Of a stretch of 57,190 nucleotides of DNA, positions 19,911-50,805 are shown one piece after another (the stretch's first letter is position 1; each line of letters begins with the position of its first letter). Source of the DNA: a virus. The notes under the pieces were generated by a model. The model searched no databases. It was not told the origin of the DNA and saw only the letters and a program-made list of their open reading frames with translations. Made by a program: the position numbers and the translations under genes. The stretch lies in the IMG/VR virus record IMGVR_UViG_3300033183_000017, positions 1 to 57,190 of that record. One strand, given 5' to 3'.

Positions 19911-19911
19911 G

Positions 19912-20583: not shown

Positions 20584-20591
20584 AACAAAAC

Positions 20592-20619
20592 TTGACAATG
20601 CGAAACAAGCGAATACAAC
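20592..20619 (+). promoter_or_regulatory. sigma70-like promoter TTGACA-N16-TACAAC inside the paralog array
   Basis: TTGACAAT-N11-GAATACAACTATA here is nearly identical in layout to 34144..34176. Confidence 0.5.
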
Positions 20620-20879: not shown

Positions 20880-21546
20880 GAACTATGTGGTGCTAAAGTG
20901 CTACACAGACAACGGGATGTTACACTCAGCGTTTCCTGTCACACTATCGGCAAGACAGAGTGTTATAAAGACAGACCCTGCTAGACCCTACGGTTTTAGA
21001 ACTTGTACAGGTCGCACAGCAACACTTAAGCGATCAGCTACTATACCCATGTGGGTAACTTACGATGTAGATGTCAGAGATGGTGATGCTTATGTGTTCA
21101 AAGCTGACGAACACCCAGACCTTTGTAAGTTAGATTGGGTACTAAACGGCGATGCCTACATGGGTTCCGATAAGCTAGATCACATGTTGATCATGAAGCT
21201 AGACTCACCGTGGTGGTTTGAAGAAGAAACAGGTGTAGACTTTCTGTATGCACCAAACATACACAATACGACTAGGTGGCATTCACCGTCAGGAATACTA
21301 AACTTTAAGTATCAACACGCAGTTAATCTGTTTAACTACATTCATGTAGCCAGTAATCACCAGTACAGAGTTATAGCAGGTACACCTGCAGTATCGTACT
21401 ACCCGCTGACAGACAAGAAACTGTATGTAGAATCTATCTACGATGTGGACAAAGTTAAGTACTTGAAAGACAAATGTACTACACGCCCTTTTTGGGGTAG
21501 TCACGCAGACAGAGTAAAACAAGCTATATGTAGTCATGCTAAGTAG
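20848..21546 (+). CDS. paralog 3 (more divergent) of the same family
   Basis: MKLKVPFLNFKNYVVLKCYT, FRTCTG..ATLKRSATI, NLFNYIH, YPLTDKKLYVES. ATG 20848 was chosen by alignment with paralog 2. Confidence 0.7.
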   Translation: MKLKVPFLNFKNYVVLKCYTDNGMLHSAFPVTLSARQSVIKTDPARPYGFRTCTGRTATLKRSATIPMWVTYDVDVRDGDAYVFKADEHPDLCKLDWVLNGDAYMGSDKLDHMLIMKLDSPWWFEEETGVDFLYAPNIHNTTRWHSPSGILNFKYQHAVNLFNYIHVASNHQYRVIAGTPAVSYYPLTDKKLYVESIYDVDKVKYLKDKCTTRPFWGSHADRVKQAICSHAK

Positions 21547-21745
21547 ACTGGGACTTGTACTAATACTAGCGGGTTGTAATACAGTAACATATACAGCATC
21601 GTGTCCTCTGGGTGATGACGTATGCCAGAGAAACCAAAATGCACAAACCCTTGCTATCATCGGACAAGAAGAAGCCGCACTGCAATTACTTTGTGAAGAT
21701 AGTACTATCAAGCGTACTCTTGGCGACAAGTGCAGTGGCGGGTGA
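21536..21745 (+). CDS. small Cys-rich lipoprotein
   Basis: MLSRLGLVLILAGC carries a canonical lipobox (L-A-G-C). The mature part has four more Cys. Confidence 0.65.
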   Translation: MLSRLGLVLILAGCNTVTYTASCPLGDDVCQRNQNAQTLAIIGQEEAALQLLCEDSTIKRTLGDKCSGG

Positions 21746-24912: not shown

Positions 24913-25157
24913 AACAGGTTCCAGCAGGAAACAAAGGTTTAGCGAAACTGCCTAAAGAGGTTCGCAATAAAATGGGTTACATGAACAAAGGTGGTATGAG
25001 CATGAAATGTACTTGTGGTAAAGGTGGGATGTGCAACTGCGGTAAGGGCAAAAAGATGGCTTACGGTGGCATGACAAAGAAACCAACTAAGATGAACAAA
25101 GGCGGCTACTGTGGTGCATCTAATCCTGCAGCACGTCCGATGAAAAAAGGTAAATAA
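24909..25157 (+). CDS. small Gly/Lys/Met/Cys-rich basic protein
   Basis: MKQVPAGNKGLAKLPKEVRNKMGYMNKGG... It has an ATGA overlap with the previous stop. The track ORF extends to 24876. Confidence 0.55.
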   Translation: MKQVPAGNKGLAKLPKEVRNKMGYMNKGGMSMKCTCGKGGMCNCGKGKKMAYGGMTKKPTKMNKGGYCGASNPAARPMKKGK

Positions 25158-25408
25158 TGCCCTTCTATAACAAATACAAAAAAGAGTTAGAGAAAGCTGG
25201 CTTTACTGTAGATGATGCAGGTAATGTGTGGGATGCAAGAGGCAACCATGCAGCTTGTGAAGATCGCTTCGGTAATGTCTATGCTAATGATCCTAACATT
25301 ACAGAAATCTGTACAAAAGCAGAAGCATCACTAGCCAATAAAACTAAGGCGGCTGTTAAAAAAGTGACAGCTAAAAAGAAGATCGAAACACTTGAGGATG
25401 GTGACTGA
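25157..25408 (+). CDS. hypothetical protein (83 aa)
   Basis: Track ORF, overlap-coupled. Confidence 0.5.
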   Translation: MPFYNKYKKELEKAGFTVDDAGNVWDARGNHAACEDRFGNVYANDPNITEICTKAEASLANKTKAAVKKVTAKKKIETLEDGD

Positions 25409-25767
25409 TGGCACTAGCTCAGCAGGGTAAACCCGCACGTGTTAAATCCGTTTATGGACATAACACAGGCACAACAGCAGAGACTGTATATACTTGCCCT
25501 GCTAATGCTGTGGCAGAGATTACATTCATTCATGTAGTAAACGGTGGTAGTTCTACTAACAGTGTTGAAGTAGAATGGTATGTAGATGAAGACAACTACA
25601 CATCACATTTCCTCAAAGGTAAATCTATCGGTGCTAGTGACTATGTGAGCTTCAGTAATATTGACCTAGTGCTACAGCCTAGTGACGAGATTCGTGTGAC
25701 ACCTACCAGCGCAGGACACATTGACACAATTCTTACAGTAACGGAAACCTTTGTACCTGTCGGGTAG
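25408..25767 (+). CDS. hypothetical protein (119 aa), beta-rich
   Basis: Track ORF with a TGATG junction to the upstream gene. Confidence 0.55.
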   Translation: MALAQQGKPARVKSVYGHNTGTTAETVYTCPANAVAEITFIHVVNGGSSTNSVEVEWYVDEDNYTSHFLKGKSIGASDYVSFSNIDLVLQPSDEIRVTPTSAGHIDTILTVTETFVPVG

Positions 25768-25845
25768 CGGGTATGCAATAATAGGTACTACTACCTGACC
25801 TACCTCTGAGTATAACTATCCTCCGCATACAACAAGGAGGACGTT

Positions 25846-26019
25846 ATGCTTAATTTAATCAAACGCGCATTTAAGGCTATCGAAGTAGCGCAACAAAAAC
25901 GAGCAGACTATAAACTACTGCAAATGCTAAATGATCGTGAACTACGTGATCTAGGTATTGGTCGCTCACAAATAAGAGAGATTATATATGGCGAGGAATC
26001 TAACAGAGAAGCAAGTTAA
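25846..26019 (+). CDS. DUF1127-type small protein (57 aa)
   Basis: Own translation MLNLIKRAFKAIEVAQQKRADYKLLQMLNDRELRDLGIGRSQIREIIYGEESNREAS. A strong SD AAGGAGG lies 5 nt upstream. L..L.DRELRDLGI.R..I is the DUF1127 signature as I recall it. Confidence 0.65.
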   Translation: MLNLIKRAFKAIEVAQQKRADYKLLQMLNDRELRDLGIGRSQIREIIYGEESNREAS

Positions 26020-26356
26020 GTTTCTTGAAGTATTATTTGATGAGGCTGGCGGTGATGTTGTTGCTGCTAAGAAACTGGCAGGTTACGCACCTGAGTCCAG
26101 CACTACAGCCATTGTGGAATCTTTAAAAGATGAGATTGCAGAAAAGACACGTACTTACTTTGCTCGTAGTGCGCCCAAGGCTGCTATGGCTATGGTTGGC
26201 GCTATATATGATCCTACTGAACTAGGTATCAAAGAGAAGATGGTTGCGGCAAAAGACTTGCTAGATCGTGCAGGTCTTGGTAAGGTAGATAAAGTGGATG
26301 TCACATCAAGTGGTGGCATCTTCTATCTTCCACCCAAAGAAGGTACAAACGAATAA
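25988..26356 (+). CDS. terminase small subunit-like HTH protein
   Basis: LTEKQVKFLEVL....GDVVAAKKLAGY is a TerS-type N-terminal HTH pattern. It sits upstream of TerL. Confidence 0.55.
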   Translation: MARNLTEKQVKFLEVLFDEAGGDVVAAKKLAGYAPESSTTAIVESLKDEIAEKTRTYFARSAPKAAMAMVGAIYDPTELGIKEKMVAAKDLLDRAGLGKVDKVDVTSSGGIFYLPPKEGTNE

Positions 26357-26391
26357 TACAACAACGAGATTTAGGTTATTGGCAGCTACCG

Positions 26392-26769
26392 TTGCCACCT
26401 AAGAACACAGATAAACAGTGGCACACAATAGTCAGGGTAACACCAAAGATACCTTGGGGCTACGAGTTACATCCAGAAAACGACAGGTTGCTTGTACCTG
26501 TTGAGCATGAACTAGAAGCGTTAGAGCTTGCAAAACGTCACCTCAAACAGTACAGTTACCGTGCGGTAGCGCAGTGGTTGAGTAAAGAAACAGGCCGTTA
26601 CATATCTCATATGGGCCTAAAGAAGAGAGTTGAAGTTGAGCAAAAACGTAGAAAAGCACTTGTCATTAAACGCAAGTTTGCCAAGTGGCTCGAAGAAACC
26701 CTTGAGGAAATCGAAAAGCTCGAAACCCAAGGGGTCGGGGCGTACGGAGAATACAACGACGACAGTTGA
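26392..26769 (+). CDS. DNA-binding-like protein (recombinase-domain/HTH-like), unknown role
   Basis: PWGYEL...VPVEHELEALELAKRHL..YSYRAVAQWLSKETG.YISHMGLKKRV. TTG start. Confidence 0.4.
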   Translation: MPPKNTDKQWHTIVRVTPKIPWGYELHPENDRLLVPVEHELEALELAKRHLKQYSYRAVAQWLSKETGRYISHMGLKKRVEVEQKRRKALVIKRKFAKWLEETLEEIEKLETQGVGAYGEYNDDS

Positions 26770-26848
26770 AACAGTCGCTACCCCCAGTGAGACTGTTCCT
26801 GCAAAAGCGGTTGCTCCTGACTTTGACGTGGATGTAGCACAGGATATT

Positions 26849-28231
26849 GTGTTCAAACCAAACCCCGGCCCCCAGACGTTTTTCCTGAGTGCGTCTGAAC
26901 GTGAAGTACTTTACGGTGGGGCAGCAGGTGGAGGCAAATCATATGCGATGCTTGCTGACCCTCTGCATGGCCTGAATGATCCTAACTTCTCTGGTCTACT
27001 TGTACGTCATACTACGGAAGAACTAAGAGAACTAATACAAAAGTCTCAGGAGCTATACCCACGTGCAGTACCCGGTATTAAATGGTCTGAAAGAAAGAGC
27101 CAGTGGACTAGCCCTAAAGGTGGCAGACTGTGGATGTCTTACTTGGATAAAGATACCGATGTTACCCGGTATCAGGGACAGGCTTTTAACTGGATCGGAT
27201 TCGACGAACTTACTCAGTGGTCTAGCCCGTATGCTTGGGATTACATGAGATCACGTTTACGTAGCTCAGCACATCACTTAGGTTTGTATATGAGAGCTAC
27301 TACCAACCCCGGTGGCGCAGGTCACTCATGGGTTAAGAAAATGTTTATTGATCCTGCACAAGCAGGTAAACCATTTTGGGCTACGAATATTGAAACAGGC
27401 GACACGATTACATTCCCTAAAGGACACAGTAAAGAAGGTCAGCCTCTATTTAAGCGTAGATTTATACCTGCGTCTTTGTTCGATAACCCCTACCTCGCGG
27501 ATGCTGGCGACTACGAAGCCATGCTCTTATCACTACCAGAGCATCAACGAAAGCAGTTGCTCGAAGGAAACTGGGACATCAACGAAGGTGCAGCCTTCCC
27601 AGAGTTTGACAGGAATAAGCATGTTATCGAAAGCTTTGACATACCTGAGAATTGGGTTAAGTTCAGGGCTTGTGATTATGGTTATGGTAGCTATACTGGC
27701 GTTTTATGGTTTGCTGTATCCCCTGATGAACAGCTAATCGTATATCGTGAGATGTATGTCTCTAAGGTTACGGCTACAGACTTAGCTGACATGATCTTAG
27801 ATGCAGAGCGTCATGACGGTGGAATGAGATACGGTGTGCTTGACTCATCTTTGTGGCACAACCGTGGCGATACGGGGCCAAGCCTCGCTGAGCAGATGAT
27901 CATGAAAGGTTGTCGTTGGCGTCCTTCAGATCGTTCTCGCGGCTCCCGCATCGCAGGTAAAAACGAAATACACAGACGTTTGCAGGTAGATGAGTTTACC
28001 GAAAAGCCACGTCTAGTATTCATGGACAACTGCACTAACACAATAGCGCAGATACCTAGCATCCCTCTGGATAAACGTAACCCAGAAGATGTAGACACAC
28101 ATGCAGAGGATCACTTGTACGATGCCTTGCGTTACGGTGTCATGACACGCCCACGCAGCAGCGTGTGGGATTTCAACACAGCAACACAACGCACAGGCTT
28201 TCAAGCTAGTGACTCAACATTTGGATATTAA
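26849..28231 (+). CDS. terL: terminase large subunit
   Basis: FKPNPGPQTFFL..LYGGAAGGGKS is Walker A and GFDELTQW is Walker B-like. Nuclease-domain acidic motifs lie toward the C-terminus. The frame is open from 26630, and I favour GTG 26849 (AGGA 4 nt upstream) or GTG 26828. Confidence 0.85.
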   Translation: MFKPNPGPQTFFLSASEREVLYGGAAGGGKSYAMLADPLHGLNDPNFSGLLVRHTTEELRELIQKSQELYPRAVPGIKWSERKSQWTSPKGGRLWMSYLDKDTDVTRYQGQAFNWIGFDELTQWSSPYAWDYMRSRLRSSAHHLGLYMRATTNPGGAGHSWVKKMFIDPAQAGKPFWATNIETGDTITFPKGHSKEGQPLFKRRFIPASLFDNPYLADAGDYEAMLLSLPEHQRKQLLEGNWDINEGAAFPEFDRNKHVIESFDIPENWVKFRACDYGYGSYTGVLWFAVSPDEQLIVYREMYVSKVTATDLADMILDAERHDGGMRYGVLDSSLWHNRGDTGPSLAEQMIMKGCRWRPSDRSRGSRIAGKNEIHRRLQVDEFTEKPRLVFMDNCTNTIAQIPSIPLDKRNPEDVDTHAEDHLYDALRYGVMTRPRSSVWDFNTATQRTGFQASDSTFGY

Positions 28232-35917: not shown

Positions 35918-38900
35918 ATGGCATTAGTAATTAAAGATCGTGTTAAGGAAGGTACAACTACCACAGGTACTGGCGACATTAGCCTATCTGGGGCAGCAGC
36001 TACATTCAGCACCTTCCAGTCGCATATGTCAAATGCGGATACAACCTACTATGCCATTGTGCATACCTCTTCTGGTACGGATGAATGGGAAGTTGGGCTA
36101 GGTACGTGGAACACGGGTAACACCCTTACACGTACTACAGTCTATGATGGTTCTAGCGGTACATCTAAAGTAAACTTTAGCTCAGGTACCAAGAACGTAT
36201 TTATGGTATCACCTGCAGATAAGACTGTTCTTAAAGATTCATCAGGTGATGTTACTATTGACCTAACTGCTATTGATGACACTGTTATTGGTGGGACAAC
36301 AGCAGCGGCAGGTACATTTACAACACTTACAACAAGTGGCTCTACAGGTTATATTGACCTAGCATCTTTTTCTACTCACCCAGCGCACCAAGAAGGTCGT
36401 ATCTTTTACGACTCTACTCACGGCACACTAAACGTTTATAATGGTGAAGCTGATATTACACTAGAGATTGGGCAAGAGCAGTATGTTCGCGTCTACAACA
36501 ACTCTGGTGCTACTTTGGCTAATGGTAAGCCTGTGTACTTCACAGGTGCAAACGGCGAGGTTCCTACTGTTGCTTTGGCTAATGGTACAAGTTCGACTAA
36601 GTACAACGTACAAGGTTTGGCAACCCATGATATAGAGGATAGCTCTTACGGTTACATTACTATTCAGGGTATGGTACGTGGAATAGACACCTCTGGTCTA
36701 ACGGCAGGTCAAAACTTCTTCTTGGGTTTGACAGATGGTGCTTTAACAAACACACCACCTTCTTATCCTAACTTCCCTATGTGTATGGGTTATGTAGTCA
36801 AGTCTCACGCCTCAGATGGTGAGCTTCTTATTGCTACACAGGACCATACGGTTAACTCGTTCCGTGTTGTTAATGATACTTATGTAGGCGGTGATCTTAC
36901 TGTATCTGGTGACCTGACTGTTTCAGGTACACAGACGGTTGCATCATCTAATAACGTTTCTCTTGGTGCTTCTTTCCAGTACCTAAATTCTGGTGACACT
37001 ATCGGTGAATCTGGTACTATACAGTCTACAGGCTCTGGCCTAGATGATGCTACACTAACAGGACACTATACAGGTACAGCATCTAAAACGTTCTACGTTA
37101 AGATTGATGGCACAGGTACACCTGACACATTTAGTTGGTCAGACGATAACTTTGCTACAACAGAAGCTACAGGCGTATCTATTACAGGTAACGATCAAAC
37201 ACTGGCAGACGGTATCTCTGTTAAGTTTGCAGCTACTACGGGTCACACATCAGGCGACATCTGGTCAGGTACAGCAGCACCTGCTAACGTAGACACAGGT
37301 TTGTTCACTAACCGCAATACAGGTTCTTCTGGTGTTGGCTACACACACATGGGTTTGTTCTTTGATGCCTCTACTGAGAAGTGGACGCTACTAGATGAGT
37401 ATGATCCAGAGCCTAGCGGAACTATTAACCTAGCAGATAGCTCTGTATCTTATGCTACACTTAAAGCGGGTACTTTTGAGGGTGACCTAACTGGTGATGT
37501 TACAGGTGATGTTACAGGTAACGCATCTACTGCTACTGCACTAGAGACACCTCGTAATATAGGTGGCGTATCTTTTGATGGTTCAGCTAATATTAACCTG
37601 CCCGGTGTTAACACTACAGGTAACCAAAATACCACAGGCAGTGCAGCTACACTTACAACAGCACGTACTATTCAGCTAACAGGTGACGTAACAGGTAGTG
37701 CCACATTCGATGGTTCAGCTAATGCGTCTATCACAGCTACTGTTGTAGATGATTCACACTCACACGTTATCTCTAACGTAGATGGACTACAGACAGCACT
37801 AGATGGTAAAACAGCTACTACTCGTACTCTTACTGCAGGTAATGGTCTTACTGGCGGTGGAGACTTATCAGCTAATAGAACGTTTACTGTAGGCGCTGGT
37901 ACAGGCGTTACAGTTAACGCTAATGACGTTGCTATTGGTCAAGACGTTGCTACTACTGCAAGCCCTACTTTTGCAGGTGGTACCTTTACAGGCCATGTCA
38001 GCTTTGGTGACAATGATCAAATACAGATTGGTGATGGTAATGACCTAGTTTTATATCATGATGGAAGCAACAACGTTATTACTGCAGATACTGGTGACCT
38101 ATATGTACAAAATAACACTAATGACAAAGATGTTATTATACGTACAGACAATGGTAGTGGCGGCGTAGCAACTTATATTCTCTGTGATGGTAGTGATGGT
38201 GCAGTAAATCTGTACCACTACGGCACAAAGAAATTCAACACTAATAGTAGTGGTATTTCGGTAACTGGCGACATCGCAGTATCTGGCAACGTAGATGGTC
38301 GTGACATCAGTGGTATCACAGCGACTAACGCTGAGTTAAACTTGCTTGACGGTGCTACAGTTACGACAGCAGAGATCAACAAGCTTGATGGCTTTACAGG
38401 TGTAGTTGCTGATTTGAACTACGCTAAAGACCTACGTGCTACAGGGGTTACAACAGCAGAGTTTGACAAGCTAGACGGTCTGACAGCTACTACTGCAGAG
38501 TTGAACATCATGGATGGTGTTACTGCTACTACAGCAGAGCTAAACATTATGGATGGTGTAACAGCGACAACTGCAGAGTTAAATTATGTAGACGGTGTAA
38601 CGTCAAACATTCAGACACAGCTAGACGCTAAGTTAGAATCTCACCCAACTATTACAGCAGCATCGTCTTCTGATAACTCAGGGCGTACTTACATTCAGGA
38701 CATTACACTAGACAGTAATGGACACGTTACAGGTTTAGCAACAGCTACAGAAACTGTAACAGACACAACGTACACAGGTGGTGGAGACTACGGTATCACG
38801 ATCAGTGGCACGGAAATTCGCTTGGAAGATGACCGCCGCCGCAATTCAAGCACGGTTGACGTATATTCTGGTAACACGAACGATTATACGTTTTACGATG

Positions 38901-39307
38901 CTGACGTAGGCATTCGTTGGTATACTGCGAATGCAGAAGAGATGCGCCTTGAAGATGATGGAGACTTGCACGTTGATGGTAACGTAACTGCATACTCAAC
39001 AACCGTTTCAGATGAACGCCTAAAGACAGACATAGAACGTATTGAAGGTGCGTTAGACAAGGTTTGTGCTTTGTCTGGTTACACATTCACATACAAGCAT
39101 GATGGAAAGGCGTCAGCGGGTGTTATTGCGCAAGAGGTTGAGAAAGTCTTACCGTCAGCCGTTATCGAAAAAGAGTTGGCATTTCAAGGTGAAGCGGGAC
39201 AGGAATACAAAATCGTACAATACGATCAGCTTCACGGCTTGTTAATCGAAGCTATCAAAGAGTTGAAAGACGAGATCAAGGATTTAAGATCAGAACTAGG
39301 AGTGTAA
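35918..39307 (+). CDS. tail fibre protein 1 with C-terminal intramolecular chaperone (peptidase S74-like) domain
   Basis: The N-terminal KEGTTTTGTGDISLSGAA..EWEVGLGTW fibre-anchor pattern, TAELNxxDG repeats, and a C-terminal SDERLKTDI...GYTFTYK..AGVIAQEVEKVLP..V..YDQL..LLIEAIKEL. Confidence 0.85.
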   Translation: MALVIKDRVKEGTTTTGTGDISLSGAAATFSTFQSHMSNADTTYYAIVHTSSGTDEWEVGLGTWNTGNTLTRTTVYDGSSGTSKVNFSSGTKNVFMVSPADKTVLKDSSGDVTIDLTAIDDTVIGGTTAAAGTFTTLTTSGSTGYIDLASFSTHPAHQEGRIFYDSTHGTLNVYNGEADITLEIGQEQYVRVYNNSGATLANGKPVYFTGANGEVPTVALANGTSSTKYNVQGLATHDIEDSSYGYITIQGMVRGIDTSGLTAGQNFFLGLTDGALTNTPPSYPNFPMCMGYVVKSHASDGELLIATQDHTVNSFRVVNDTYVGGDLTVSGDLTVSGTQTVASSNNVSLGASFQYLNSGDTIGESGTIQSTGSGLDDATLTGHYTGTASKTFYVKIDGTGTPDTFSWSDDNFATTEATGVSITGNDQTLADGISVKFAATTGHTSGDIWSGTAAPANVDTGLFTNRNTGSSGVGYTHMGLFFDASTEKWTLLDEYDPEPSGTINLADSSVSYATLKAGTFEGDLTGDVTGDVTGNASTATALETPRNIGGVSFDGSANINLPGVNTTGNQNTTGSAATLTTARTIQLTGDVTGSATFDGSANASITATVVDDSHSHVISNVDGLQTALDGKTATTRTLTAGNGLTGGGDLSANRTFTVGAGTGVTVNANDVAIGQDVATTASPTFAGGTFTGHVSFGDNDQIQIGDGNDLVLYHDGSNNVITADTGDLYVQNNTNDKDVIIRTDNGSGGVATYILCDGSDGAVNLYHYGTKKFNTNSSGISVTGDIAVSGNVDGRDISGITATNAELNLLDGATVTTAEINKLDGFTGVVADLNYAKDLRATGVTTAEFDKLDGLTATTAELNIMDGVTATTAELNIMDGVTATTAELNYVDGVTSNIQTQLDAKLESHPTITAASSSDNSGRTYIQDITLDSNGHVTGLATATETVTDTTYTGGGDYGITISGTEIRLEDDRRRNSSTVDVYSGNTNDYTFYDADVGIRWYTANAEEMRLEDDGDLHVDGNVTAYSTTVSDERLKTDIERIEGALDKVCALSGYTFTYKHDGKASAGVIAQEVEKVLPSAVIEKELAFQGEAGQEYKIVQYDQLHGLLIEAIKELKDEIKDLRSELGV

Positions 39308-39308
39308 T

Positions 39309-40259
39309 ATGGCTCTACAAAACTCAGGTCAAATTTCTTTAAACGACATACACGTAGAAGCAGGTGGGTCTAGTGGCTCTGCAGTTTCTATTAACGACAG
39401 TGATGTTCGTGGGTTGATCGACAAAGGGTCTGCCGCACAGATGTCTTTCAGCGAATGGTACGGCGCACAGGCCGAGGTTGTTCTAAGCTCTGCAGGTACT
39501 ATCAACGGATATGGTAACCGTAAACAAATCACAGTATCTAGCTTTATCTCTTCTGGTGAGACATTACGCATCCCATCTAATATGTATGTGTGGTCTGATT
39601 CTACAGGTACACCTGCACTAACGGTAAACATTCCCTGTACTATTATCAACGAAGGTCGTATTATTGGTAAAGGCGGTAACGGAGGTAACAGCTACGGTTC
39701 TGGTGCAGGTGGTGGTATTGGCCTACGTATCACATCTAGTGGCGTAACTATTATCAACGAATCAGGTGGTTACATCGCTGGCGGCGGTGGAGGTGGCGGT
39801 GGAGGCCGTTACAACACAAACATCGCAGGTGGTGGCGGTGGCGCAGGTGGCGGCAACGGAGGCTACGGCGCATTCCCTTACACTTATAACATTACCTCTG
39901 GCGGTTCTGGTGGTGCTATCAACGGTACTTCTACAGGTTCAAACTCTGGTGCAGGTGCTGGCGGTGGAGGCGGCGGCGGTGGTTCTGCAGGTGGCGGCGG
40001 TGGCCGTATCCTACCGGGCGTTGGTAAAGCAGGTAACTGTGGTGGAACTAACTGCGGTGGTATCGGCGGCAGTGGCGGTAACGTAGGTGGTAACCACCGT
40101 ACAGGTCAACAAGGCGGTTCTGCTGCTGCAGGTGGCGGCGGTTGGGGAGCGCGAGGCGGTACTGGTGGTACAGGCGGTTATGGTAACGGCGGTGCTGCAA
40201 TCAGTAAAACAACTAGTTATAGCTTAACAAATAACGGTACAATATACGGGTCTACATAA
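39309..40259 (+). CDS. glycine-rich protein, paralog A (putative fibre-associated adhesin)
   Basis: 316 aa. The N-terminal ~115 aa and several Gly-rich blocks are shared with 45958..46950. Confidence 0.7.
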   Translation: MALQNSGQISLNDIHVEAGGSSGSAVSINDSDVRGLIDKGSAAQMSFSEWYGAQAEVVLSSAGTINGYGNRKQITVSSFISSGETLRIPSNMYVWSDSTGTPALTVNIPCTIINEGRIIGKGGNGGNSYGSGAGGGIGLRITSSGVTIINESGGYIAGGGGGGGGGRYNTNIAGGGGGAGGGNGGYGAFPYTYNITSGGSGGAINGTSTGSNSGAGAGGGGGGGGSAGGGGGRILPGVGKAGNCGGTNCGGIGGSGGNVGGNHRTGQQGGSAAAGGGGWGARGGTGGTGGYGNGGAAISKTTSYSLTNNGTIYGST

Positions 40260-40645
40260 TGTCTACTAAATGGTGGTATGGTCATAACGAGTACAATACT
40301 AGGGCAGAAGCTGATCAAGCAGTACTAGATATGAGAGACTTGCTAGATAGTCAGCCTAATGAATATGTTTCAGTAACTCCTGTTACACAAGCTGACAACG
40401 GCGGTTGGCTTATATCCGATGATGCCTACACAGATAGTGAAATACTAAACTTAGATACTTCAGGATACTACAACGTCACCAATCATTTTACAGGTGAAAC
40501 CTTTGTAGGTCTGGCAGGTACGGATGTAGGCGCTAAGATAAGCGAAGGTAAACGTATTTATGCTCAGCAATACGAAGTAACTCTTTTAAGGGAAATAAGA
40601 GATCACACCCCTACAAATGTAGATATGTCTGTCTACTTAGACTAA
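40259..40645 (+). CDS. hypothetical protein (128 aa)
   Basis: Track ORF with a TAATG junction. Confidence 0.55.
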   Translation: MSTKWWYGHNEYNTRAEADQAVLDMRDLLDSQPNEYVSVTPVTQADNGGWLISDDAYTDSEILNLDTSGYYNVTNHFTGETFVGLAGTDVGAKISEGKRIYAQQYEVTLLREIRDHTPTNVDMSVYLD

Positions 40646-40657
40646 GGAATATAGTTA

Positions 40658-41278
40658 ATGCTATCCTTTGCAGCGCTATCAGAAACAGCAATAGCAGAAT
40701 CCACTACGGTACTTGATGCTAGTGCCTATATGACAGGTGCCACATCTACGGCATCTGCAGGTACGCTTGGATATGACGCTAAGGCAAGCATTACTAATCC
40801 TGCAGCTACTGGTACTACATCTGCAGGTACACTAGATTATGATGCTAAGTCTAACACAACCCTACCTGCAGCTACAGCCACAACAAGCGCAGGTATTGTA
40901 GAAGCTAACCCACATGAAGACTTAGGTAGTGTATCAGCAGCCACATCTGCAGGTACTCTAAGCTATGACGCTAAGGCGAGTATTGTATTACCTGCAGCTA
41001 CAGCGACATTTGAGCTTGGTATCGAGTTTGACGCTAAAGCTAACATCACTCTTGATGCAGCTACAGCAGACGCAGACCTTACAGCAAATGACTTTGCAGA
41101 CGAAGACGCTCAAGCAAGTATAACTATAACAGGCGTATCCGCAGCCACAACAGCTAACTGGGACACCGACGATGGTATATACGCAGTGCAGGTTGTCTTT
41201 GCTGCTACAGACTTTGAAAGAAAGCGCTGTGTTAATATTGTGCCATACGGCAATTACAAAGTTTATGTTACACGATAG
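40658..41278 (+). CDS. structural-region protein with ~22-aa tandem repeats
   Basis: Repeats of the form TSAGTL.YDAKAS..LPAATAT. Confidence 0.6.
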   Translation: MLSFAALSETAIAESTTVLDASAYMTGATSTASAGTLGYDAKASITNPAATGTTSAGTLDYDAKSNTTLPAATATTSAGIVEANPHEDLGSVSAATSAGTLSYDAKASIVLPAATATFELGIEFDAKANITLDAATADADLTANDFADEDAQASITITGVSAATTANWDTDDGIYAVQVVFAATDFERKRCVNIVPYGNYKVYVTR

Positions 41279-44143: not shown

Positions 44144-45958
44144 ATGGCAGGTTATCAGCGTCAAGATACAACAGGTCAATTAGCTAACGGCAATCCTATT
44201 GATGCCGACATCTTCAACGATGAGTATGATGCTATTGAATCCGCATTTAACGCATCGTCAGGACACACTCACGATGGTACTGCAGGTGGTGGTGCGCCTA
44301 TTGAGAGTATTGGCCCTAGTCAAGAACTAGAGGTCACAAGCGCTGCTGTGTTCCCAAAGAACAACAATCTTATTGATCACGGTAAAACAGCACTACGTTG
44401 GAAAGACGGCTACTACGGTGGTACTGTATACGCTGAAGACGCAGTGATCAACGATGATGCTTCTGTAGGTGGCGATCTTACTGTTACAGGAACAACTACA
44501 CTTAACGGTAATACTGTTGTAGGTGACGCTGCTACAGACACTGTTACAGTAAACGCGGATGTTGCGTCTAATCTTATACCAGATGCTACAGGTACTCGTA
44601 ACCTTGGTTCTAGCACGATGGAGTGGAATGACATATTCATCGACGGTACTGCCACCGTTGACACTCTTACTGTAGACGAGAACGCTACTGTAGCAGGAAC
44701 ACTAGATGTAACTGGCAATACAGGCATTGATGGTGACTTCGATATTGCCACAAACAAATTTACGGTGGCCTCTGCTACAGGTAATACTCTTGTAGCAGGT
44801 ACACTAGATGTCAATGGTGCCACTACTGTTGTTGGTGATGTAGATATTACAGGTGACACAGACATCACAGGTAATGGCCTAGTATCTGGTACCTTTGACG
44901 TAGGTGGTGCCACAGGTATTGACGGTAACTTTGACATTAACACAGACAAGTTTACCGTAGCGGCTATGACAGGTAATACAGTTATTGCTGGTACCTTAGA
45001 TGTCGGCGGTGCCTTTGGCATGGACGGTGACTTTGACGTAAATACAAACAAGTTCACTGTTGCTGCAGCTACAGGTAACACTGCTATTGCAGGTACCTTA
45101 GACGTTACTGGTAATCAGACAAACACAGGTGACCTAACTGTTAACGGCAATACTGTTTTGGGTGATGCTGCTACAGATACAGTTACGCTGAATGCAGATG
45201 TTGCATCTAACATCATCCCAGATACAACAAGTACGTACACAATCGGTGATTCGTCTAACTACTGGTCACACGGTTATATAGACGCTATCACTACTTCTGG
45301 TGATGTAGGTGTAGGCGGTGACGTAACAATCACAGGTGATCTAACAGTACAAGGTACAACAACTACAGTTAACTCTACTACTGTAGAGATCGCAGACTTG
45401 AACATCGAAGTTGCATCAAACGCAGCTACAGCAGCAGCGGCAAACGGTGGTGGCCTTACTGTAGGTGGTGCAGATGCCACTCTTACTTACGATTCCACTA
45501 CAGATCGTTGGGATATGAACAAAGACCTAGAGGTTGCAAACGTATATGCAGACCTTACAGGTGATGTTACAGGTAATGTTGACGGTATTATTGGCGGCAC
45601 TACACCTGCTGCAGTTACAGGTACAACAGTTCAGTTTAACACAGGTTTGACAGACGGTACCATTACGATTGATGGTTTTGTAGACGAAGATGATATGACA
45701 TCTGATAGTGATACAAAAGTACCAACACAACAATCGGTTAAGGCTTATGTAGACGCTGCAGTGGCAGGTGACGGCACAGGCGATATTGAGGTAGACACAG
45801 TTGATGCAACCACTATTGATTTAGGCGGTGGTACAGGTTGGACTATCACAGCCAACGGAACGACACTAGAGTTTAAATATAACGGCACAGTGCGATTTAA
45901 GATGACAAGCACTGGTACATTCCAAGCAGATGATGATGTAGAAGCAGAGGCATTCTAA
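44144..45958 (+). CDS. tail fibre protein 2
   Basis: The N-terminal IDADIFNDEYDAIESAFN..GHTHDGTAGGG pattern is common in phage fibres. There are multiple ~40-aa repeats (GNT..AGTLDV.G....DGDFD..TNKFTVA). Confidence 0.8.
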   Translation: MAGYQRQDTTGQLANGNPIDADIFNDEYDAIESAFNASSGHTHDGTAGGGAPIESIGPSQELEVTSAAVFPKNNNLIDHGKTALRWKDGYYGGTVYAEDAVINDDASVGGDLTVTGTTTLNGNTVVGDAATDTVTVNADVASNLIPDATGTRNLGSSTMEWNDIFIDGTATVDTLTVDENATVAGTLDVTGNTGIDGDFDIATNKFTVASATGNTLVAGTLDVNGATTVVGDVDITGDTDITGNGLVSGTFDVGGATGIDGNFDINTDKFTVAAMTGNTVIAGTLDVGGAFGMDGDFDVNTNKFTVAAATGNTAIAGTLDVTGNQTNTGDLTVNGNTVLGDAATDTVTLNADVASNIIPDTTSTYTIGDSSNYWSHGYIDAITTSGDVGVGGDVTITGDLTVQGTTTTVNSTTVEIADLNIEVASNAATAAAANGGGLTVGGADATLTYDSTTDRWDMNKDLEVANVYADLTGDVTGNVDGIIGGTTPAAVTGTTVQFNTGLTDGTITIDGFVDEDDMTSDSDTKVPTQQSVKAYVDAAVAGDGTGDIEVDTVDATTIDLGGGTGWTITANGTTLEFKYNGTVRFKMTSTGTFQADDDVEAEAF

Positions 45959-46950
45959 TGGCCCTACAGAACTCAGGTAAGATCACTTTAAAGGACATCC
46001 AAGGAGAGTTTGGCGGTACTGCCCCTCACTCTCTTAAGGAGTACTACGATGCTGCTAGTGGTGTACCTGCTAGTGGTACTATTAGTATTAAAGACTTTTA
46101 CGGAGTACAAGATACCACTGTTCTTACATCAGCAGCCTTGGTTAACGGTAAATCTAACCGTAAGCAAATTACTGCTTCTAGCTTTATTAGCGCGGGTGAA
46201 ATTCTTGAGATACCTGCTAACTTCTACGTCTGGTCTGATAGCACTTCAACAGCAGCCCTAACAGTAGACATACCTTGTACAATCCTTAACAAGGGCTTTA
46301 TTATTGGCAAGGGCGGTGCGGGTGCAGTTATCAGTGTATCCACCGCAGGTGGCGGTGGCCCTGCTATTAACGTTACGTCTACAGGAGTTACAATTACAAA
46401 CGAGTCAGGCGCTTACATCGCGGGTGGCGGTGGCGGCGGTGGCGCAGGTAACTGGCAAGGCGGCGGCGGTAACGAGTACGGTACAGGCAACCGTGCAGGT
46501 GGCGGCGGTGGTGCAGGAGGTGGTGCGGGCGGCACTGGCTCTTTCCCTAACTTTAACGACACTAGGGCGGGCGGCTCTGGTGGCGCTCTTGGAGCAGCAG
46601 GATCAGCAGGTCAGTCTGGTGGCGCTGGCGGTGGTGCTGGCGGCGGCGGTGGAGGCGGCGGTGGCGCAGGTGGGGGCGGTGGTCGCATCCTTCCCGGTAC
46701 TGGCGGTGCGGGTGGCTCTGGCACCAACGCAGGTGGTGTAGGTGGCGCTGCAGGTAACGTAGGTGGTAATCACAATTCTGGTAACGAGTGGTCATCTGCT
46801 GCAGGTGGCGGCGGTGGTTGGGGCGCACGTGGTGGCTCTGGCGGTAGTATTATTAGTGGTAGCTACGGTTCTTACGGTTCTGGTGGTGCTGCAATAACAG
46901 GAACATCTCGTACGCTTACTAACAACGGAACCATATACGGTACTACATAA
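45958..46950 (+). CDS. glycine-rich protein, paralog B (putative fibre-associated adhesin)
   Basis: 330 aa, a paralog of 39309..40259 (MALQNSG.I.L.DI, NRKQIT.SSFIS.GE.L.IP.N.YVWSDST, GGGGRILPG, GGGWGARGG, LTNNGTIYG). Confidence 0.7.
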   Translation: MALQNSGKITLKDIQGEFGGTAPHSLKEYYDAASGVPASGTISIKDFYGVQDTTVLTSAALVNGKSNRKQITASSFISAGEILEIPANFYVWSDSTSTAALTVDIPCTILNKGFIIGKGGAGAVISVSTAGGGGPAINVTSTGVTITNESGAYIAGGGGGGGAGNWQGGGGNEYGTGNRAGGGGGAGGGAGGTGSFPNFNDTRAGGSGGALGAAGSAGQSGGAGGGAGGGGGGGGGAGGGGGRILPGTGGAGGSGTNAGGVGGAAGNVGGNHNSGNEWSSAAGGGGGWGARGGSGGSIISGSYGSYGSGGAAITGTSRTLTNNGTIYGTT

Positions 46951-47084
46951 TGTCTAAGTTAGATATTTGTAAAGCTTGTGACAGATATAAAATGGGTATC
47001 TGTAAAGAGTGTGGCTGTATAGTAAGACTTAAAATACTAACCTCAGAAATAACTTGTCCTTTAGGTAAACACAATGTCGCTTAA
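46950..47084 (+). CDS. Cys-rich mini-protein (44 aa)
   Basis: Own translation MSKLDICKACDRYKMGICKECGCIVRLKILTSEITCPLGKHNVA, with a TAATG junction. Confidence 0.5.
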   Translation: MSKLDICKACDRYKMGICKECGCIVRLKILTSEITCPLGKHNVA

Positions 47085-47328
47085 CTTGACACCAGAAGAG
47101 CTAGAAGATATGCTAGATAGAGCAGCAAGGCGCGGTGCTAAAGAGGCACTTAAGTCTCTTGGGTTGTCTGATGATGATGCACCTAAAGACTTACATGAAT
47201 TGCGTAGCATACTTGAAGCATATCGTGACACAAAGAAGAGTATCTGGAATACTGCAGTAAGAATATCTACAGTAGCGCTGCTATCATTTATAGCTGCATC
47301 TGTGTGGATGCAAATAGGGAATAAATAA
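47074..47328 (+). CDS. small protein with C-terminal transmembrane helix
   Basis: 84 aa with VRISTVALLSFIAASVWMQI at the C-terminus. Confidence 0.55.
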   Translation: MSLNLTPEELEDMLDRAARRGAKEALKSLGLSDDDAPKDLHELRSILEAYRDTKKSIWNTAVRISTVALLSFIAASVWMQIGNK

Positions 47329-49139: not shown

Positions 49140-49152
49140 TACGGAAAACATT

Positions 49153-50805
49153 ATGGCAGACTATAATCCTTACACAGTAGGCTCATATCAACAAATGGCA
49201 GCGACTATGGCTCAGAGTGGCGGTGGTCGAAACATGAGTGGGCTTGGCGCTAGACCTAGTAACCAAACAGATACGCCAACAGGTACAGTAGACTTTACTA
49301 CTATTGATCCTACTACAGGGACGCAGATAGACGTAGCTACTATTGACTTCGGTGACGGTGGAGATAGCACACCTAATGTTATCTACGCTGCTGCTGCGAA
49401 TGCTGCCACACAAGCAGGTTCAGTCTTCGCACCACAAGGACCGATGGCTAATGCTATCAACCTGTACTCTATGCCTAACATGGTAGAGTCTGCATCAGAC
49501 TTTGTTTACCGTGCAGACCGTGACGATGCTATCACATCTGCTATCAGTGATGTACAAGCAGAAGAGCAAGAGCAAATCAACGCAGCTATTAGTTCTGTCA
49601 ACAGTGCTATCACCATGGGCAAGACAGATGCAGAGATTGCTGAAGCGTTCCTGAATGACATGGGTGGCTTTGGTAGTGATAAGCCTGACGAGACTGGTGG
49701 TTTCGGCGTACAAGGCACAACACTTAAAGATGTCACAGATACACAGCAAGGCTTAATGTCTAACCCGCAGCCTTTGTATGATTTCGCTGAAGAAATGGCT
49801 AACCCTAGCATCACTAAGTCAGAGTTACCACCTATGTCACCAGATGAACAGGCCGCACTAGGTGAAGCTATCCGTAAAGCAGCAGAAGATGGTACACTAT
49901 CTAGTAAGCTAAGTAACATCCAGTTTGTAAGTTTAGATGGTGATAGGACTGACCCCTCTTATTGGGATAGAGTGTTTGCGGGTGAGACTGACCCAGAGAC
50001 AGGACAAACAATTAAGTCTGCAGATGATGTAGCTAATGAGCGTATGTCTGAGATGGCATCACAAGGTTTGATGTCACGCCGTATGGATGGTAAAGACGGT
50101 GACTTGGCTGCGTCTGTTGCTCCTTTTAGCGTAAGCGAAGACGAGCTATACAACTTTGCTAAAGAGGCTTACCCTGACAATGATCTTGCAGCAGGTGCTT
50201 TACTAGCCACTATCGAAGCTGAAAGTGCAGGTGGTGACACTATGCTTGAGAGTGGTAACTATACTAAAGAAGCTGCACTTCGCGTTGCAAATCAAGGCGA
50301 GTTTAAAACAGCAAGAAAGAAAGAAGTAGAAAAGATTTTCAAAGACCCTGATCTTACCTATACAGATAGTAAGGGTAGAACACGCATGACAAAAGAAGGT
50401 CAAGTTAAGTTCTTTAATATATACTATAACGACAAGTACCGTGGCGAAAATTACAAACTAGGTAATACAGAAGAGGGGGATGGCTTTCGTTTCCGTGGAC
50501 GTGGGCCAATCCAACTCACAGGTAAAAACAACTACAAGAAGTATGGCGACATGATAGGGGTTGATCTAGTTCAAAACCCTCAACTAGTGGTCACTGATAA
50601 AGATGTAGCTCTTGCTGTCACTAAGGCGTTTATGAAGGACAAAGGCTTAGATAAGGTTAGCTCTGCTAAAGGATTGAGAGATATTGTAGGTCACGCGGAT
50701 GATGCCAAGCTAACTAAAGCAAAGGCACGTTGGAAGAGAGCGCAAGAAATAGAACGTCAGATTATGCGTGAAACTTCACCACGCCCCGTGCTAAGGCCAG
50801 AATAA
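49153..50805 (+). CDS. virion protein with C-terminal GH19 (chitinase-like) peptidoglycan hydrolase domain
   Basis: LLATIEAESAGG .. GDGFRFRGRGPIQLTGKNNYKKYG matches the GH19 catalytic-core pattern of phage lysins. ATG 49153 (MADYNPY). The track ORF extends to 48940. Confidence 0.75.
   Translation: MADYNPYTVGSYQQMAATMAQSGGGRNMSGLGARPSNQTDTPTGTVDFTTIDPTTGTQIDVATIDFGDGGDSTPNVIYAAAANAATQAGSVFAPQGPMANAINLYSMPNMVESASDFVYRADRDDAITSAISDVQAEEQEQINAAISSVNSAITMGKTDAEIAEAFLNDMGGFGSDKPDETGGFGVQGTTLKDVTDTQQGLMSNPQPLYDFAEEMANPSITKSELPPMSPDEQAALGEAIRKAAEDGTLSSKLSNIQFVSLDGDRTDPSYWDRVFAGETDPETGQTIKSADDVANERMSEMASQGLMSRRMDGKDGDLAASVAPFSVSEDELYNFAKEAYPDNDLAAGALLATIEAESAGGDTMLESGNYTKEAALRVANQGEFKTARKKEVEKIFKDPDLTYTDSKGRTRMTKEGQVKFFNIYYNDKYRGENYKLGNTEEGDGFRFRGRGPIQLTGKNNYKKYGDMIGVDLVQNPQLVVTDKDVALAVTKAFMKDKGLDKVSSAKGLRDIVGHADDAKLTKAKARWKRAQEIERQIMRETSPRPVLRPE

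What the first reader, a model, noticed from the sequence alone, without database searches (positions are those of the whole stretch)
39309..40259. Duplicated fibre + glycine-rich protein modules: candidate gp38-like polyglycine adhesins on a podovirus
Each of the two tail-fibre genes (35918..39307 and 44144..45958) is followed, with a 1-4 nt junction, by a ~320-aa paralog. These are 39309..40259 and 45958..46950.

The paralogs have a conserved N-terminal ~115 aa: MALQNSG.I.L.DI, NRKQIT.SSFIS.GE.L.IP.N.YVWSDST..ALTV.IPCTI.N.G.IIGKGG. The C-terminal two-thirds is made of oligo-Gly blocks (GGGGGGGG, GGGGRILPG, GGGWGARGG) separated by short variable segments. Both end in LTNNGTIYG.T.

Glycine-rich motifs alternating with variable segments are the architecture of T2/S16-type gp38 adhesins (polyglycine-II sandwich) that cap long tail fibres. 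A beta-helix with N.G.I.G turns is an alternative.

Two such modules would give dual receptor specificity.
Basis: partly seen in the sequence, partly recalled or inferred. Interest (0 to 1): 0.65.

Follow-up and report, generated by a model that had tools for sequence, protein, structure and literature searches.

The report
Gp38-like polyglycine adhesins capping podovirus fibres
A marine HMO-2011-type podovirus carries two paralogous genes, each directly behind its own tail-fibre gene, that encode distant relatives of the glycine-rich gp38 receptor-binding cap of T2/S16-type coliphages, so this "T-even" host-recognition device is widespread in uncultured ocean phages.

Summary
ORFs 39309..40259 (316 aa) and 45958..46950 (330 aa) are paralogs, about 31% glycine, each translationally coupled to an upstream fibre gene.

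The gp38 reading is supported.
- An AlphaFold2 model (pLDDT 87.9) matches only gp38 of PP01 and S16 in the PDB (E about 1e-5 to 1e-6).
- The topology is the same: a small beta-helix with two glycine-rich turn extensions.
- Conserved Gly motifs alternate with variable, indel-rich segments.
- 37 of 123 family representatives hit Pfam GP38, although the two window proteins do not.

New here:
- The fibre upstream of such an adhesin either ends in an S74 self-cleaving chaperone domain, as S16 gp37 does, or ends natively at the same roughly 45-aa "...GNVTAY" tip module.
- The adhesin's first ~55 aa are not the T-even attachment domain. They form a different, portable docking domain found on other receptor-binding domains in podo- and myoviruses.
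- The window holds two apparently orthogonal tip/dock pairs.
- A conserved 128-aa companion gene has no known fold.

Virion presence, stoichiometry and receptors are untested. Verdict: a new variant of a known kind, of moderate interest.

The parts
35918..39307 (+). Fibre 1 (1129 aa), the class I partner of adhesin A. The tip module is aa 988-1027 (nt 38879..38998). The predicted autocleavage Ser1031 lies in SDERLK (nt 39008..39025). The S74 intramolecular chaperone domain runs from aa 1031 to the C-terminus (nt 39008..39304).
   Evidence: Pfam Peptidase_S74 E=3.5e-16 at aa 1031-1082, plus tail-fibre PHROGs. An HMM built only from natively terminating tips hits aa 988-1027, i-E=5.9e-6, ending 3 residues before Ser1031. 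The sequence before the motif is ...MRLEDDGDLHVDGNVTAYSTTV|SDERLK.
39309..40259 (+). Adhesin A (316 aa). N-terminal docking domain aa 1-55 (39309..39473). Beta-helix core aa 56-119 (39474..39665). Glycine-rich extension 1 aa 120-138 (39666..39722). Beta strands aa 139-157 (39723..39779). Glycine-rich extension 2 aa 158-297 (39780..40199). Closing beta strands aa 298-316 (40200..40256).
   Evidence: ORF. AF2 pLDDT 87.9, pTM 0.83, with the strand pattern. Foldseek matches gp38 only. Conservation profile. A-type dock motif HVEAGG..ND.D.R.
40259..40645 (+). Conserved 128-aa companion gene, overlapping the stop codon of adhesin A by one base. Function unknown.
   Evidence: All 40 homologues in the fetched loci lie directly after an adhesin gene. 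It is present in 32/43 IMC-type modules and 5/26 native-tip modules. AF2 pLDDT 93.5. No PDB fold match. No Pfam, PHROG or PDB sequence hit.
44144..45958 (+). Fibre 2 (604 aa), the class II partner of adhesin B. It has no chaperone domain. The tip module is aa 556-604 (nt 45809..45955) and forms the native C-terminus, ...FKMTSTGTFQADDDVEAEAF.
   Evidence: Fibre-type PHROG hits. Tip HMM hits aa 556-604, i-E=1e-16. The N-terminal 122 aa are 52% identical to the CRP-207 tail fibre gp46.
45958..46950 (+). Adhesin B (330 aa), paralog of A with a B-type docking domain (EFGG...EYY...SGTISIKDFYG) and different variable segments.

Best explanation
Both genes encode stand-alone receptor-binding caps of the gp38 (T2/S16) type.

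Proposed sequence of events:
1. Each fibre trimerises. Fibre 1 does so with the help of its C-terminal S74 intramolecular chaperone, which then cuts itself off at Ser1031. Fibre 2 needs no cleavage.
2. Either way, a roughly 45-residue tip module becomes the free distal end (...GNVTAY-type in fibre 1, an ...AEAF variant in fibre 2).
3. The adhesin's N-terminal ~55-residue docking domain binds that tip.
4. A small beta-helix then projects a sandwich of polyglycine-II-like strands. Its glycine motifs form the rigid core, and its variable loops contact the host receptor.

The two modules use different tip and dock subtypes, so each cap should load only onto its own fibre, giving one virion two recognition specificities.

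Shown: gene structure, homology and fold, the pattern of glycine motifs (GRMs) and variable segments (HVSs), adjacency, and tip/dock covariation.

Inferred: cleavage, physical docking, stoichiometry, presence in the virion, and receptor binding.
For: Fold.
- AF2 with a 120-sequence alignment gives pLDDT 87.9.
- The only PDB matches are gp38 of PP01 and S16, probability 1.00.
- BFVD matches include proteins named Gp38-domain proteins.
- No other glycine-rich PDB structure appears among the matches with E<=10, so composition alone does not explain the hit.

Topology.
- Strands flank a 19-residue extension (120-138) and a 140-residue extension (158-297).
- S16 gp38 has 18- and 77-residue extensions of two beta-helix turns (PMC6851490).

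Sequence links.
- phmmer's best PDB hit is 6f45_D.
- hhalign against S16 gp38 gives E=2.7e-4.
- The family profile against Sinorhizobium phage phiM9 gp135 gives probability 96.5%, E=7e-10.
- phiM9 gp135 itself hits Pfam GP38 at E=9e-5 and aligns collinearly with S16 gp38.
- 37 of 123 family representatives hit Pfam GP38 at E<=0.01, best 6e-11.
- Precomputed Pfam lists PF05268 for all 120 listed homologues.

Variability.
- Mean pairwise identity is 68-74% in the beta core against 46% in the extensions.
- Insertions cluster in at least 8 variable segments.
- pLDDT dips coincide with those segments.

Context.
- In 81 cases where the gene upstream of an adhesin is not itself an adhesin, 50 end in an S74 domain and 27 end natively at the tip motif.
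- A tip HMM built only from native ends hits 39 of the 50 S74 fibres, always 0-5 residues before the cleavage Ser.
- S16 gp37 also carries S74, at aa 638-698, directly before gp38.
- T2/T6 gp37 is cleaved and then capped (PMC3157838).

Covariation.
- The AEAF tip pairs with the B-type dock in 2 of 2 cases.
- Loci whose fibre end is unrelated (L081, L083) have adhesins with no dock at all.

Portability of the dock.
- The same ~55 aa precede non-glycine domains behind S74 fibres in Alteromonas phage AD45-P1, Synechococcus phage S-CREM2, Xanthomonas phage Rb1 and Stenotrophomonas phage DLP_6.
- They precede glycine-rich domains in Lentibacter phage ICBM1, Ralstonia phage YL1 and Pseudomonas phage Dolphis.
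Against: - Neither window protein reaches any Pfam threshold, including GP38 and Gp38_N, even at E<=10.
- Direct sequence similarity to S16 gp38 is weak (E=1.7; hhalign probability only 41.7%).
AlphaFold was trained after 6F45 was released and may be drawn to that fold for Gly-rich sequences.
- TM-scores are moderate (0.45-0.61) and rmsd is 4.8-7.7 A.
- The two fibre C-termini show no significant pairwise similarity by BLASTP (E=0.15). The link rests on the profile.
- Dock subtype is not strictly tied to fibre class.
- Some dock-bearing proteins lack an adjacent fibre (Vibrio phages nt-1 and F86).
- There are no proteomic, imaging or adsorption data for any member.
Confidence: 0.75

Rival explanations
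1. The Gly-rich proteins are assembly chaperones or transient caps. They would help the fibre fold, or shield its tip, and would be absent from the mature virion, as T4 gp38, Pam3 gp25 or the Alteromonas A5/V22 chaperone caps are.
For: The position directly downstream of a fibre gene is also typical of fibre chaperones (PMC9608196; PMC10579305). No virion data exist for this family.
Against: - The fold matches the adhesin type of gp38, not T4 gp38, Tfa or IMC-like chaperones.
- There is no Pfam or PHROG chaperone hit.
- Fibre 1 already has its own intramolecular chaperone.
- Hypervariable loops on a conserved scaffold are expected of a receptor binder, not of a chaperone.
- Fused forms exist in which the beta-helix and glycine-rich part (profile positions ~53-322, without the dock) lies in the C-terminal half of 500-1177 aa proteins, at their very end in several.
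Confidence: 0.1
2. They are virion proteins but do not sit on the preceding fibres. They would be independent short appendages, or generic glycine "brush" domains that contact lipid or glycan surfaces non-specifically, like the brush domains of siphovirus hub proteins.
For: Polyglycine-rich brush domains occur on hub proteins of mycobacteriophages and of Alishewanella phage LSH1 (PMC13243795). In many loci the upstream protein is tiny (68-158 aa), little more than the tip module. Tandem adhesin genes occur.
Against: Adjacency to a gene ending in the tip module or an S74 domain holds in 77 of 81 cases, usually with 1-nt overlaps. The N-terminus changes when the fibre end changes. The variable segments argue for specific recognition.
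Confidence: 0.12
3. The glycine-rich ORFs are low-complexity or disordered sequence, or spurious ORFs, with no defined fold.
For: Glycine is 31-32% of residues, 43-44% after residue 120. BLAST's low-complexity filter masks most of the C-terminal part, so tblastn matches cover only the N-terminal part.
Against: Thousands of full-length homologues have invariant non-glycine positions such as W279, R233, L235, P236 and Y313. Model confidence is above 90 through most Gly motifs. The overlapping alternative-frame ORFs were not examined further.
Confidence: 0.01

Closest known systems
gp38 adhesin of T2/T6/S16/PP01-type Straboviridae (PDB 6F45 chain D, 9V85; Pfam PF05268 plus PF21721)
   Same: - A small protein encoded directly after the distal fibre gene.
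- In S16, and for module A here, that fibre carries a C-terminal S74 chaperone domain.
- A beta-helix core with one short and one long turn extension made of glycine-rich motifs that alternate with variable segments.
- A conserved closing motif: GGAAG.A..GT....N.G.I.G in S16 against GGAAI.GTSRTL.N.GTIYG here.
   Different: - The host phage is a ~55-kb marine podovirus, not a T4-like myovirus.
- The N-terminal attachment domain is unrelated in sequence (no Gp38_N hit; no Trp-tipped helices evident).
- The fibre tip it follows differs: the tip HMM does not hit S16 gp37.
- The long extension is 140 aa against 77 aa.
- Two modules occur per genome, tandem adhesin genes occur in relatives, and there is an extra conserved 128-aa gene.
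Sinorhizobium phage phiM9 gp135 and Rhizobium phage P10VF gp048/gp050 (read as "collagen-like" in 2015, PMC4621102)
   Same: The same N-terminal dock, the same closing motif, and a position behind an S74 fibre. P10VF is reported to have two fibre-plus-homologue pairs.
   Different: These are myoviruses of rhizobia. The middle part is longer and less glycine-rich. They were never interpreted as gp38-like caps.
RB43-type gp38 (T-even attachment domain joined to an unrelated specificity domain; PMC3157838)
   Same: The same modular logic: a ~50-aa portable attachment domain joined to interchangeable receptor-binding domains. Here the dock is joined to gp38-like, Gly_rich_2, FG-GAP or other domains.
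   Different: A different attachment domain family and a different phage range.
Glycine-rich domain of cyanophage Pam3 fibre gp24, and the "brush" domains of siphovirus hub proteins
   Same: Lattices of extended glycine-rich strands with variable distal tips used for host recognition.
   Different: Those domains are fused into trimeric fibre or hub proteins on a TNF-like or other scaffold. No such protein appears among the listed PDB matches of the model.
Gly_rich_2 (PF21722) fibre ends, e.g. Roseobacter phage CRP-207 gp54 and Lentibacter phage ICBM1 gp50
   Same: A glycine-rich distal domain at the equivalent fibre locus of the nearest cultured relatives.
   Different: A different Pfam family with a different closing motif (...GGSG.V.IRY). 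The window proteins do not hit it. In CRP-207 it is fused to the fibre.

Membership tests
gp38 adhesin (T2/S16 type; Pfam GP38 PF05268) | Match to the family's sequence model above its threshold | tested here: inconclusive
   The window proteins give no hit to the local PF05268.17 even at E<=10. However, 37 of 123 cluster representatives that match the window family profile at E<1e-33 hit it at E<=0.01, best 6e-11. phiM9 gp135 bridges the two. Precomputed PF05268.19 is listed for all 120 close homologues.
gp38 adhesin (T2/S16 type) | Central beta-helix whose two turn extensions (one short, one long) build the glycine-rich sandwich | tested here: met
   The AF2 strand pattern has extensions at aa 120-138 and 158-297. 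Foldseek finds only 9v85 and 6f45_D, E 6e-6 to 1.7e-5, TM 0.60-0.61 on the target. S16 description in PMC6851490.
gp38 adhesin (T2/S16 type) | Conserved glycine-rich motifs alternating with hypervariable segments | tested here: met
   Column conservation and indel positions over 120 homologues. Region-wise identity of 46% in the extensions against 68-74% in the core.
gp38 adhesin (T2/S16 type) | Polyglycine-II backbone geometry in a three-layer lattice | not testable with these tools
The only available indications are DSSP "coil" with pLDDT above 90 in the Gly motifs and the fold match.
gp38 adhesin (T2/S16 type) | N-terminal attachment domain Gp38_N (PF21721), a three-helix bundle with apex tryptophans | tested here: not met
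   S16 gp38 hits Gp38_N at E=1e-19. The window proteins do not hit it at E<=10. Instead they carry a different ~55-aa domain with three short predicted helices, shared with many other phage proteins.
gp38 adhesin (T2/S16 type) | Gene directly downstream of the distal fibre gene, whose product is C-terminally processed before capping | tested here: met
   Module A: the fibre has Peptidase_S74 (E=3.5e-16) and an SDERLK motif, and the adhesin starts 1 nt after the stop. S16 gp37 likewise has S74. Module B: the fibre has no S74 but ends at the homologous tip module. Cleavage itself was not tested.
gp38 adhesin (T2/S16 type) | Present in the virion as a monomer on the trimeric fibre tip, binding an outer-membrane receptor | not testable with these tools
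   No proteomics, structure or host data exist for this phage or its uncultured relatives.
Peptidase_S74 intramolecular-chaperone fibres (fibre 1) | C-terminal S74 domain with a Ser...Lys cleavage motif | tested here: met
   Pfam PF13884 at aa 1031-1082. S1031-D-E-R-L-K1036.
Gly_rich_2 (PF21722) glycine-rich fibre domain | Match to PF21722 | tested here: not met
   No hit for A or B, whereas CRP-207 gp54 and ICBM1 gp50 do hit.
Tail-fibre assembly chaperones (T4 gp38, Tfa/Mu-type) | Sequence or fold match to a chaperone family | tested here: not met
   No Pfam or PHROG chaperone family. No chaperone structure among the listed PDB matches.

The most novel reading that the evidence does not exclude
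The window may expose a general plug-and-socket system for phage host recognition. The socket is a ~45-residue fibre-tip module, either exposed by S74 self-cleavage or encoded as the native end, in some phages as a 68-aa mini-protein. The plug is a ~55-residue N-terminal docking domain with three similar helix-starting motifs that may match the trimer's symmetry.

The plug carries interchangeable receptor binders: gp38-like polyglycine sandwiches, Gly_rich_2, FG-GAP and others. It occurs across podoviruses (HMO-2011-type, N4-like, Zobellviridae, GP4-like) and myoviruses (Kyanoviridae, phiM9-like).

Subtypes of tip and dock would make orthogonal pairs, as in this window. Tandem adhesin genes that share one dock type would give mixed-cap virions. 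The 128-aa companion would be a new loading factor.
Probability: 0.4. Interest if true: 0.75.

Novelty: new variant of a known kind. Interest (0 to 1): 0.55.

Why it matters
Gp38 adhesins are usually described as a speciality of Straboviridae (for example the abstract of PMC12032242). Here the same device is the distal receptor binder of an abundant group of uncultured marine podoviruses, with its fibre-then-cap assembly logic intact but a different attachment domain and a polyglycine part almost twice as long.

The family is large: at least 2592 clusters at 50% identity.

This has three practical consequences:
- The variable loops are the natural place to look for host-specificity signals in viromes whose hosts are unknown.
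- The conserved tip and dock pair suggests a portable scaffold for retargeting phages.
- The existence of two orthogonal pairs in one genome, and of tandem caps in relatives, gives a concrete, testable model for how small podoviruses broaden or switch host range.

Tried and rejected
- DNA megablast of the whole fibre region against cultured phages found nothing.
- tblastn of A and B against 50,697 phage records found only the N-terminal ~50-85 aa. BLAST's low-complexity filter masks the glycine part, so absence of the full protein from cultured phages is not fully proven.
- A profile of 120 homologues against PDB sequences returned only glycine linkers of fusion constructs. These were rejected as compositional.
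- Direct BLASTP of the two fibre C-termini was not significant. The link needed a profile.
- A regex test for a threefold internal repeat in the dock showed enrichment at positions ~9, ~26 and ~45 over shuffles, but only 25 of 72 N-termini had two or more matches. It is kept as a hypothesis only.
- The companion protein gave no match in the PDB sequence profile search, PHROGs or Foldseek.
- The promoter and terminator scan of 33-48 kb was no better than shuffles.
- The "transient chaperone cap" paper on Alteromonas phages concerns a different, IMC-like chaperone, not the dock-bearing proteins.
- No virion proteomics for any dock-bearing protein was found in the papers searched.
Full report
**What is there**

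The window is a phage genome of the HMO-2011 type.
- Its major capsid protein is 87-88% identical to those of the Roseobacter phages CRP-207, CRP-2 and CRP-603, and 59% identical to that of Puniceispirillum phage HMO-2011.
- It has an SU10-type portal and adaptor and a GP4-type fibre-tail adaptor.

In the late operon there are two fibre genes: 35918..39307 (1129 aa) and 44144..45958 (604 aa). Each is followed by a ~320-aa ORF: A at 39309..40259 and B at 45958..46950. The junctions are TAA-t-ATG and an overlapping TAATG, each with a Shine-Dalgarno-like GGAG or GAGG upstream. A and B are clear paralogs (E=3e-46).

**Family**

A word-indexed search returned 1420 relatives at E<=1e-3. The 120 best are nearly all 300-350 aa, come from marine metagenomes, and all have a precomputed Pfam GP38 hit. 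An exhaustive profile search of 1.84 billion cluster representatives gave 2592 matches at E<=1e-3 and 1408 at E<=1e-10.

Some matches are 500-1177 aa proteins that carry only the beta-helix and glycine part, in their C-terminal half (at the very end in several). These are fused versions without the N-terminal domain.

My own Pfam scan found nothing for A or B, even at E<=10. Even so, 37 of 123 representatives of the same family hit Pfam GP38 at E<=0.01, best 6e-11. So A and B lie in a divergent branch of a family that is continuous with GP38.

**Fold**

AlphaFold2 with the 120-sequence alignment gave pLDDT 87.9 and pTM 0.83.
- Residues 1-55 form three short helices at lower confidence.
- Residues 56-157 and 298-316 form short beta strands.
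- A 19-residue stretch (120-138) and a 140-residue stretch (158-297) have no DSSP helix or strand but mostly very high confidence.

Foldseek against the PDB returned three significant hits, all gp38: PP01 9v85 chains A and C, and S16 6f45_D (E 6e-6 to 1.7e-5, probability 1.00). Everything else had E>2. In BFVD the best hits include proteins named Gp38-domain proteins from Rhizobium and Agrobacterium phages.

According to its authors, S16 gp38 consists of an N-terminal helical attachment domain and a five-ringed beta-helix. Two turns of that helix, of 18 and 77 residues, extend into a sandwich of ten polyglycine-II helices joined by hypervariable loops (PMC6851490). The model here has the same plan with a long extension almost twice that size. 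I could not inspect coordinates, so PGII geometry and layer number are untested.

**Sequence links**

- phmmer's only PDB hit is 6f45_D, at E=1.7.
- hhalign of the family profile against S16 gp38 aligns TIiN.GKIIGkGG...SGVTI.N.SGAYIAGGGGGG with the corresponding S16 stretch (E=2.7e-4, probability 42%).
- A cultured-phage protein bridges the gap. phiM9 gp135 matches the family profile at 96.5% probability and hits Pfam GP38 at E=9e-5. It also aligns with S16 gp38 at two collinear motifs, including the closing one.

**Variability**

Across 120 homologues the glycine motifs are nearly invariant. At least eight intervening segments are variable and hold most of the insertions. In A's numbering these are roughly aa 127-134, 164-173, 186-198, 209-213, 222-226, 241-250, 261-273 and 285-290.

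Mean pairwise identity is 68-74% in the beta core and 46% in the two extensions. Between A and B, only 27 of 76 aligned positions that are not glycine in both are identical in the long extension, and there are 23 gap columns. This is the pattern of glycine motifs (GRMs) and hypervariable segments (HVSs) that defines gp38 (PMC3157838).

**Which fibre end do the adhesins go with?**

I fetched 79 IMG/VR loci and four further contigs, and found 88 adhesin ORFs in them. In 81 cases the gene upstream of an adhesin is not itself an adhesin. These upstream genes fall into two classes:
- 50 end in an S74 intramolecular chaperone domain preceded by ...MRLE.DGDLHVDGNVTAYSTTV|SDERLK.
- 27 end natively at ...MKLDASGNLTVTGNVTAYGSV.

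An HMM built only from the native ends, with the window excluded, hits 39 of the 50 S74 fibres. The hit always ends 0-5 residues before the cleavage serine. In the window it hits fibre 1 at aa 988-1027 (5.9e-6) and fibre 2 at its very end, aa 556-604 (1e-16). After self-cleavage, both classes would therefore present the same module as the free distal end.

S16 gp37 also ends in an S74 domain directly before gp38. T2/T6 gp37 is known to be cleaved and then capped. Module A thus reproduces the T-even arrangement, and module B is a cleavage-free version of it.

**The N-terminal domain**

The first ~55 aa (MALQ.SG.ISL.DI...) are not Gp38_N. The same domain occurs on many other phage proteins. Among the cultured phages I examined:
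- Alteromonas N4-like AD45-P1: fibre ...GNVTAYGSA|SDITLK with an IMC, then dock plus a non-glycine domain.
- Lentibacter phage ICBM1: a 68-aa protein that is essentially only the tip module, then dock plus Gly_rich_2.
- Ralstonia phage YL1 and Pseudomonas phage Dolphis: an S74 fibre, then dock plus a glycine-rich domain.
- Synechococcus myovirus S-CREM2: an S74 long tail fibre, then dock plus another domain.
- Xanthomonas phage Rb1 and Stenotrophomonas phage DLP_6: an S74 fibre, one intervening gene, then a dock protein.
- Vibrio phages nt-1 and F86 carry the dock without an adjacent fibre.

The tip HMM hits the fibres of AD45, ICBM1, YL1, S-CREM2 and Dolphis in the right place. It does not hit S16 gp37 or the CRP-207 fibres.

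Within the adhesin family there are two dock subtypes:
- The A type (HVEAGG..ND.D.R) goes mostly with ...TAY tips.
- The B type (EFGG...EYY) goes with the ...AEAF tip variant in both cases where that variant occurs, the window and L084.
- Adhesins behind an unrelated fibre end (L081, L083) lack the dock altogether.

This covariation, together with near-obligate adjacency, is the main indirect evidence that the dock binds the tip. In the window the two pairs differ in both partners, so they are probably orthogonal.

**Other module features**

- Six loci have two adhesin genes in tandem, both with the A-type dock. Two loci have them split, as the window does.
- A ~125-165-aa gene (window 40259..40645) follows the last adhesin in 40 loci and was never found elsewhere in those loci. 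It is enriched in S74-type modules, 32/43 against 5/26.
- That gene's model is confident (pLDDT 93.5) but matches nothing in the PDB, Pfam or PHROGs. Its role is open.
- The nearest cultured relative, CRP-207, has no such adhesin. Its fibre-1 orthologue ends in a fused Gly_rich_2 domain, and its other fibres end in collar-type domains with a Tfa chaperone. The locus is therefore a hotspot for exchanging receptor-binding ends.
- About a third to a half of the adhesin-bearing loci share the window's adaptor, nozzle or fibre-2 N-terminus (28-39 of 83). The adhesin is thus common in uncultured HMO-2011-type phages.

**Comparison with what is known**

Glycine-rich lattices are also known in Pam3 gp24 (12 motifs in four layers, in a trimeric fibre) and in siphovirus hub "brush" domains. 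The domain type is therefore not confined to T-even phages. I found no paper describing stand-alone gp38-like caps in marine podoviruses, the tip/dock pairing, or the companion gene. In 2015 phiM9 gp135 was read as collagen-like.

**Verdict**

This is a divergent, enlarged gp38-type adhesin with a different attachment system, present twice. Physical capping, virion presence, stoichiometry and dual specificity remain inferences.

Noticed in passing
window 40259..40645: A 128-aa gene overlaps the stop codon of adhesin A. It belongs to a conserved family found only directly after gp38-like adhesin genes (40 of 40 occurrences). The AF2 model is confident (pLDDT 93.5) but has no PDB fold match and no Pfam or PHROG hit.
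   Followed up: yes
window 46950..47084 and 47074..47328: A 44-aa cysteine-rich ORF (Pfam DUF6171, E=2.8e-6) is wedged between adhesin B and a DUF6127 small membrane protein. The membrane protein is 87% identical to CRP-207 gp45 and lies downstream of the adhesin in 30 related loci.
   Followed up: partly
L001 (Roseobacter phage CRP-207) 16285..19296, 19730..21580, 25033..26883: The closest cultured relative uses other fibre ends at the same loci: a fused Gly_rich_2 (PF21722) domain on gp54, and collar-type ends on gp52 and gp46 with a Tfa-like chaperone gp51. The locus is a hotspot for swapping receptor-binding ends.
   Followed up: partly
L018, L019, L024, L031, L038, L070 (IMG/VR loci): Two gp38-like adhesin genes lie in tandem with a 1-nt overlap, both carrying the same dock subtype. 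Two different caps might therefore compete for one fibre tip.
   Followed up: partly
L087 3283..3489 (Lentibacter phage ICBM1 gp51): A 68-aa protein consists of little more than the fibre-tip module (tip HMM E=5e-25). It is followed by a protein with the dock plus a Gly_rich_2 domain, which suggests the tip module is an autonomous unit.
   Followed up: partly
window 49150..50805: A large late protein with a Glyco_hydro_19 (lysozyme/chitinase-like) domain at aa 386-496. It is probably a virion-borne cell-wall-degrading internal protein.
   Followed up: no
window 40658..41278: A 206-aa protein with repeated SAGTL.YDAKA-like units, about 32% identical to CRP-207 gp50. Function unknown.
   Followed up: no
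P0152, P0159, P0175, P0241, P0298 (representative proteins): Proteins of 587-1177 aa carry the gp38-like beta-helix and glycine part in their C-terminal half (at the very end in P0152, P0241 and P0298), without the dock. These are fused rather than separate adhesins.
   Followed up: no
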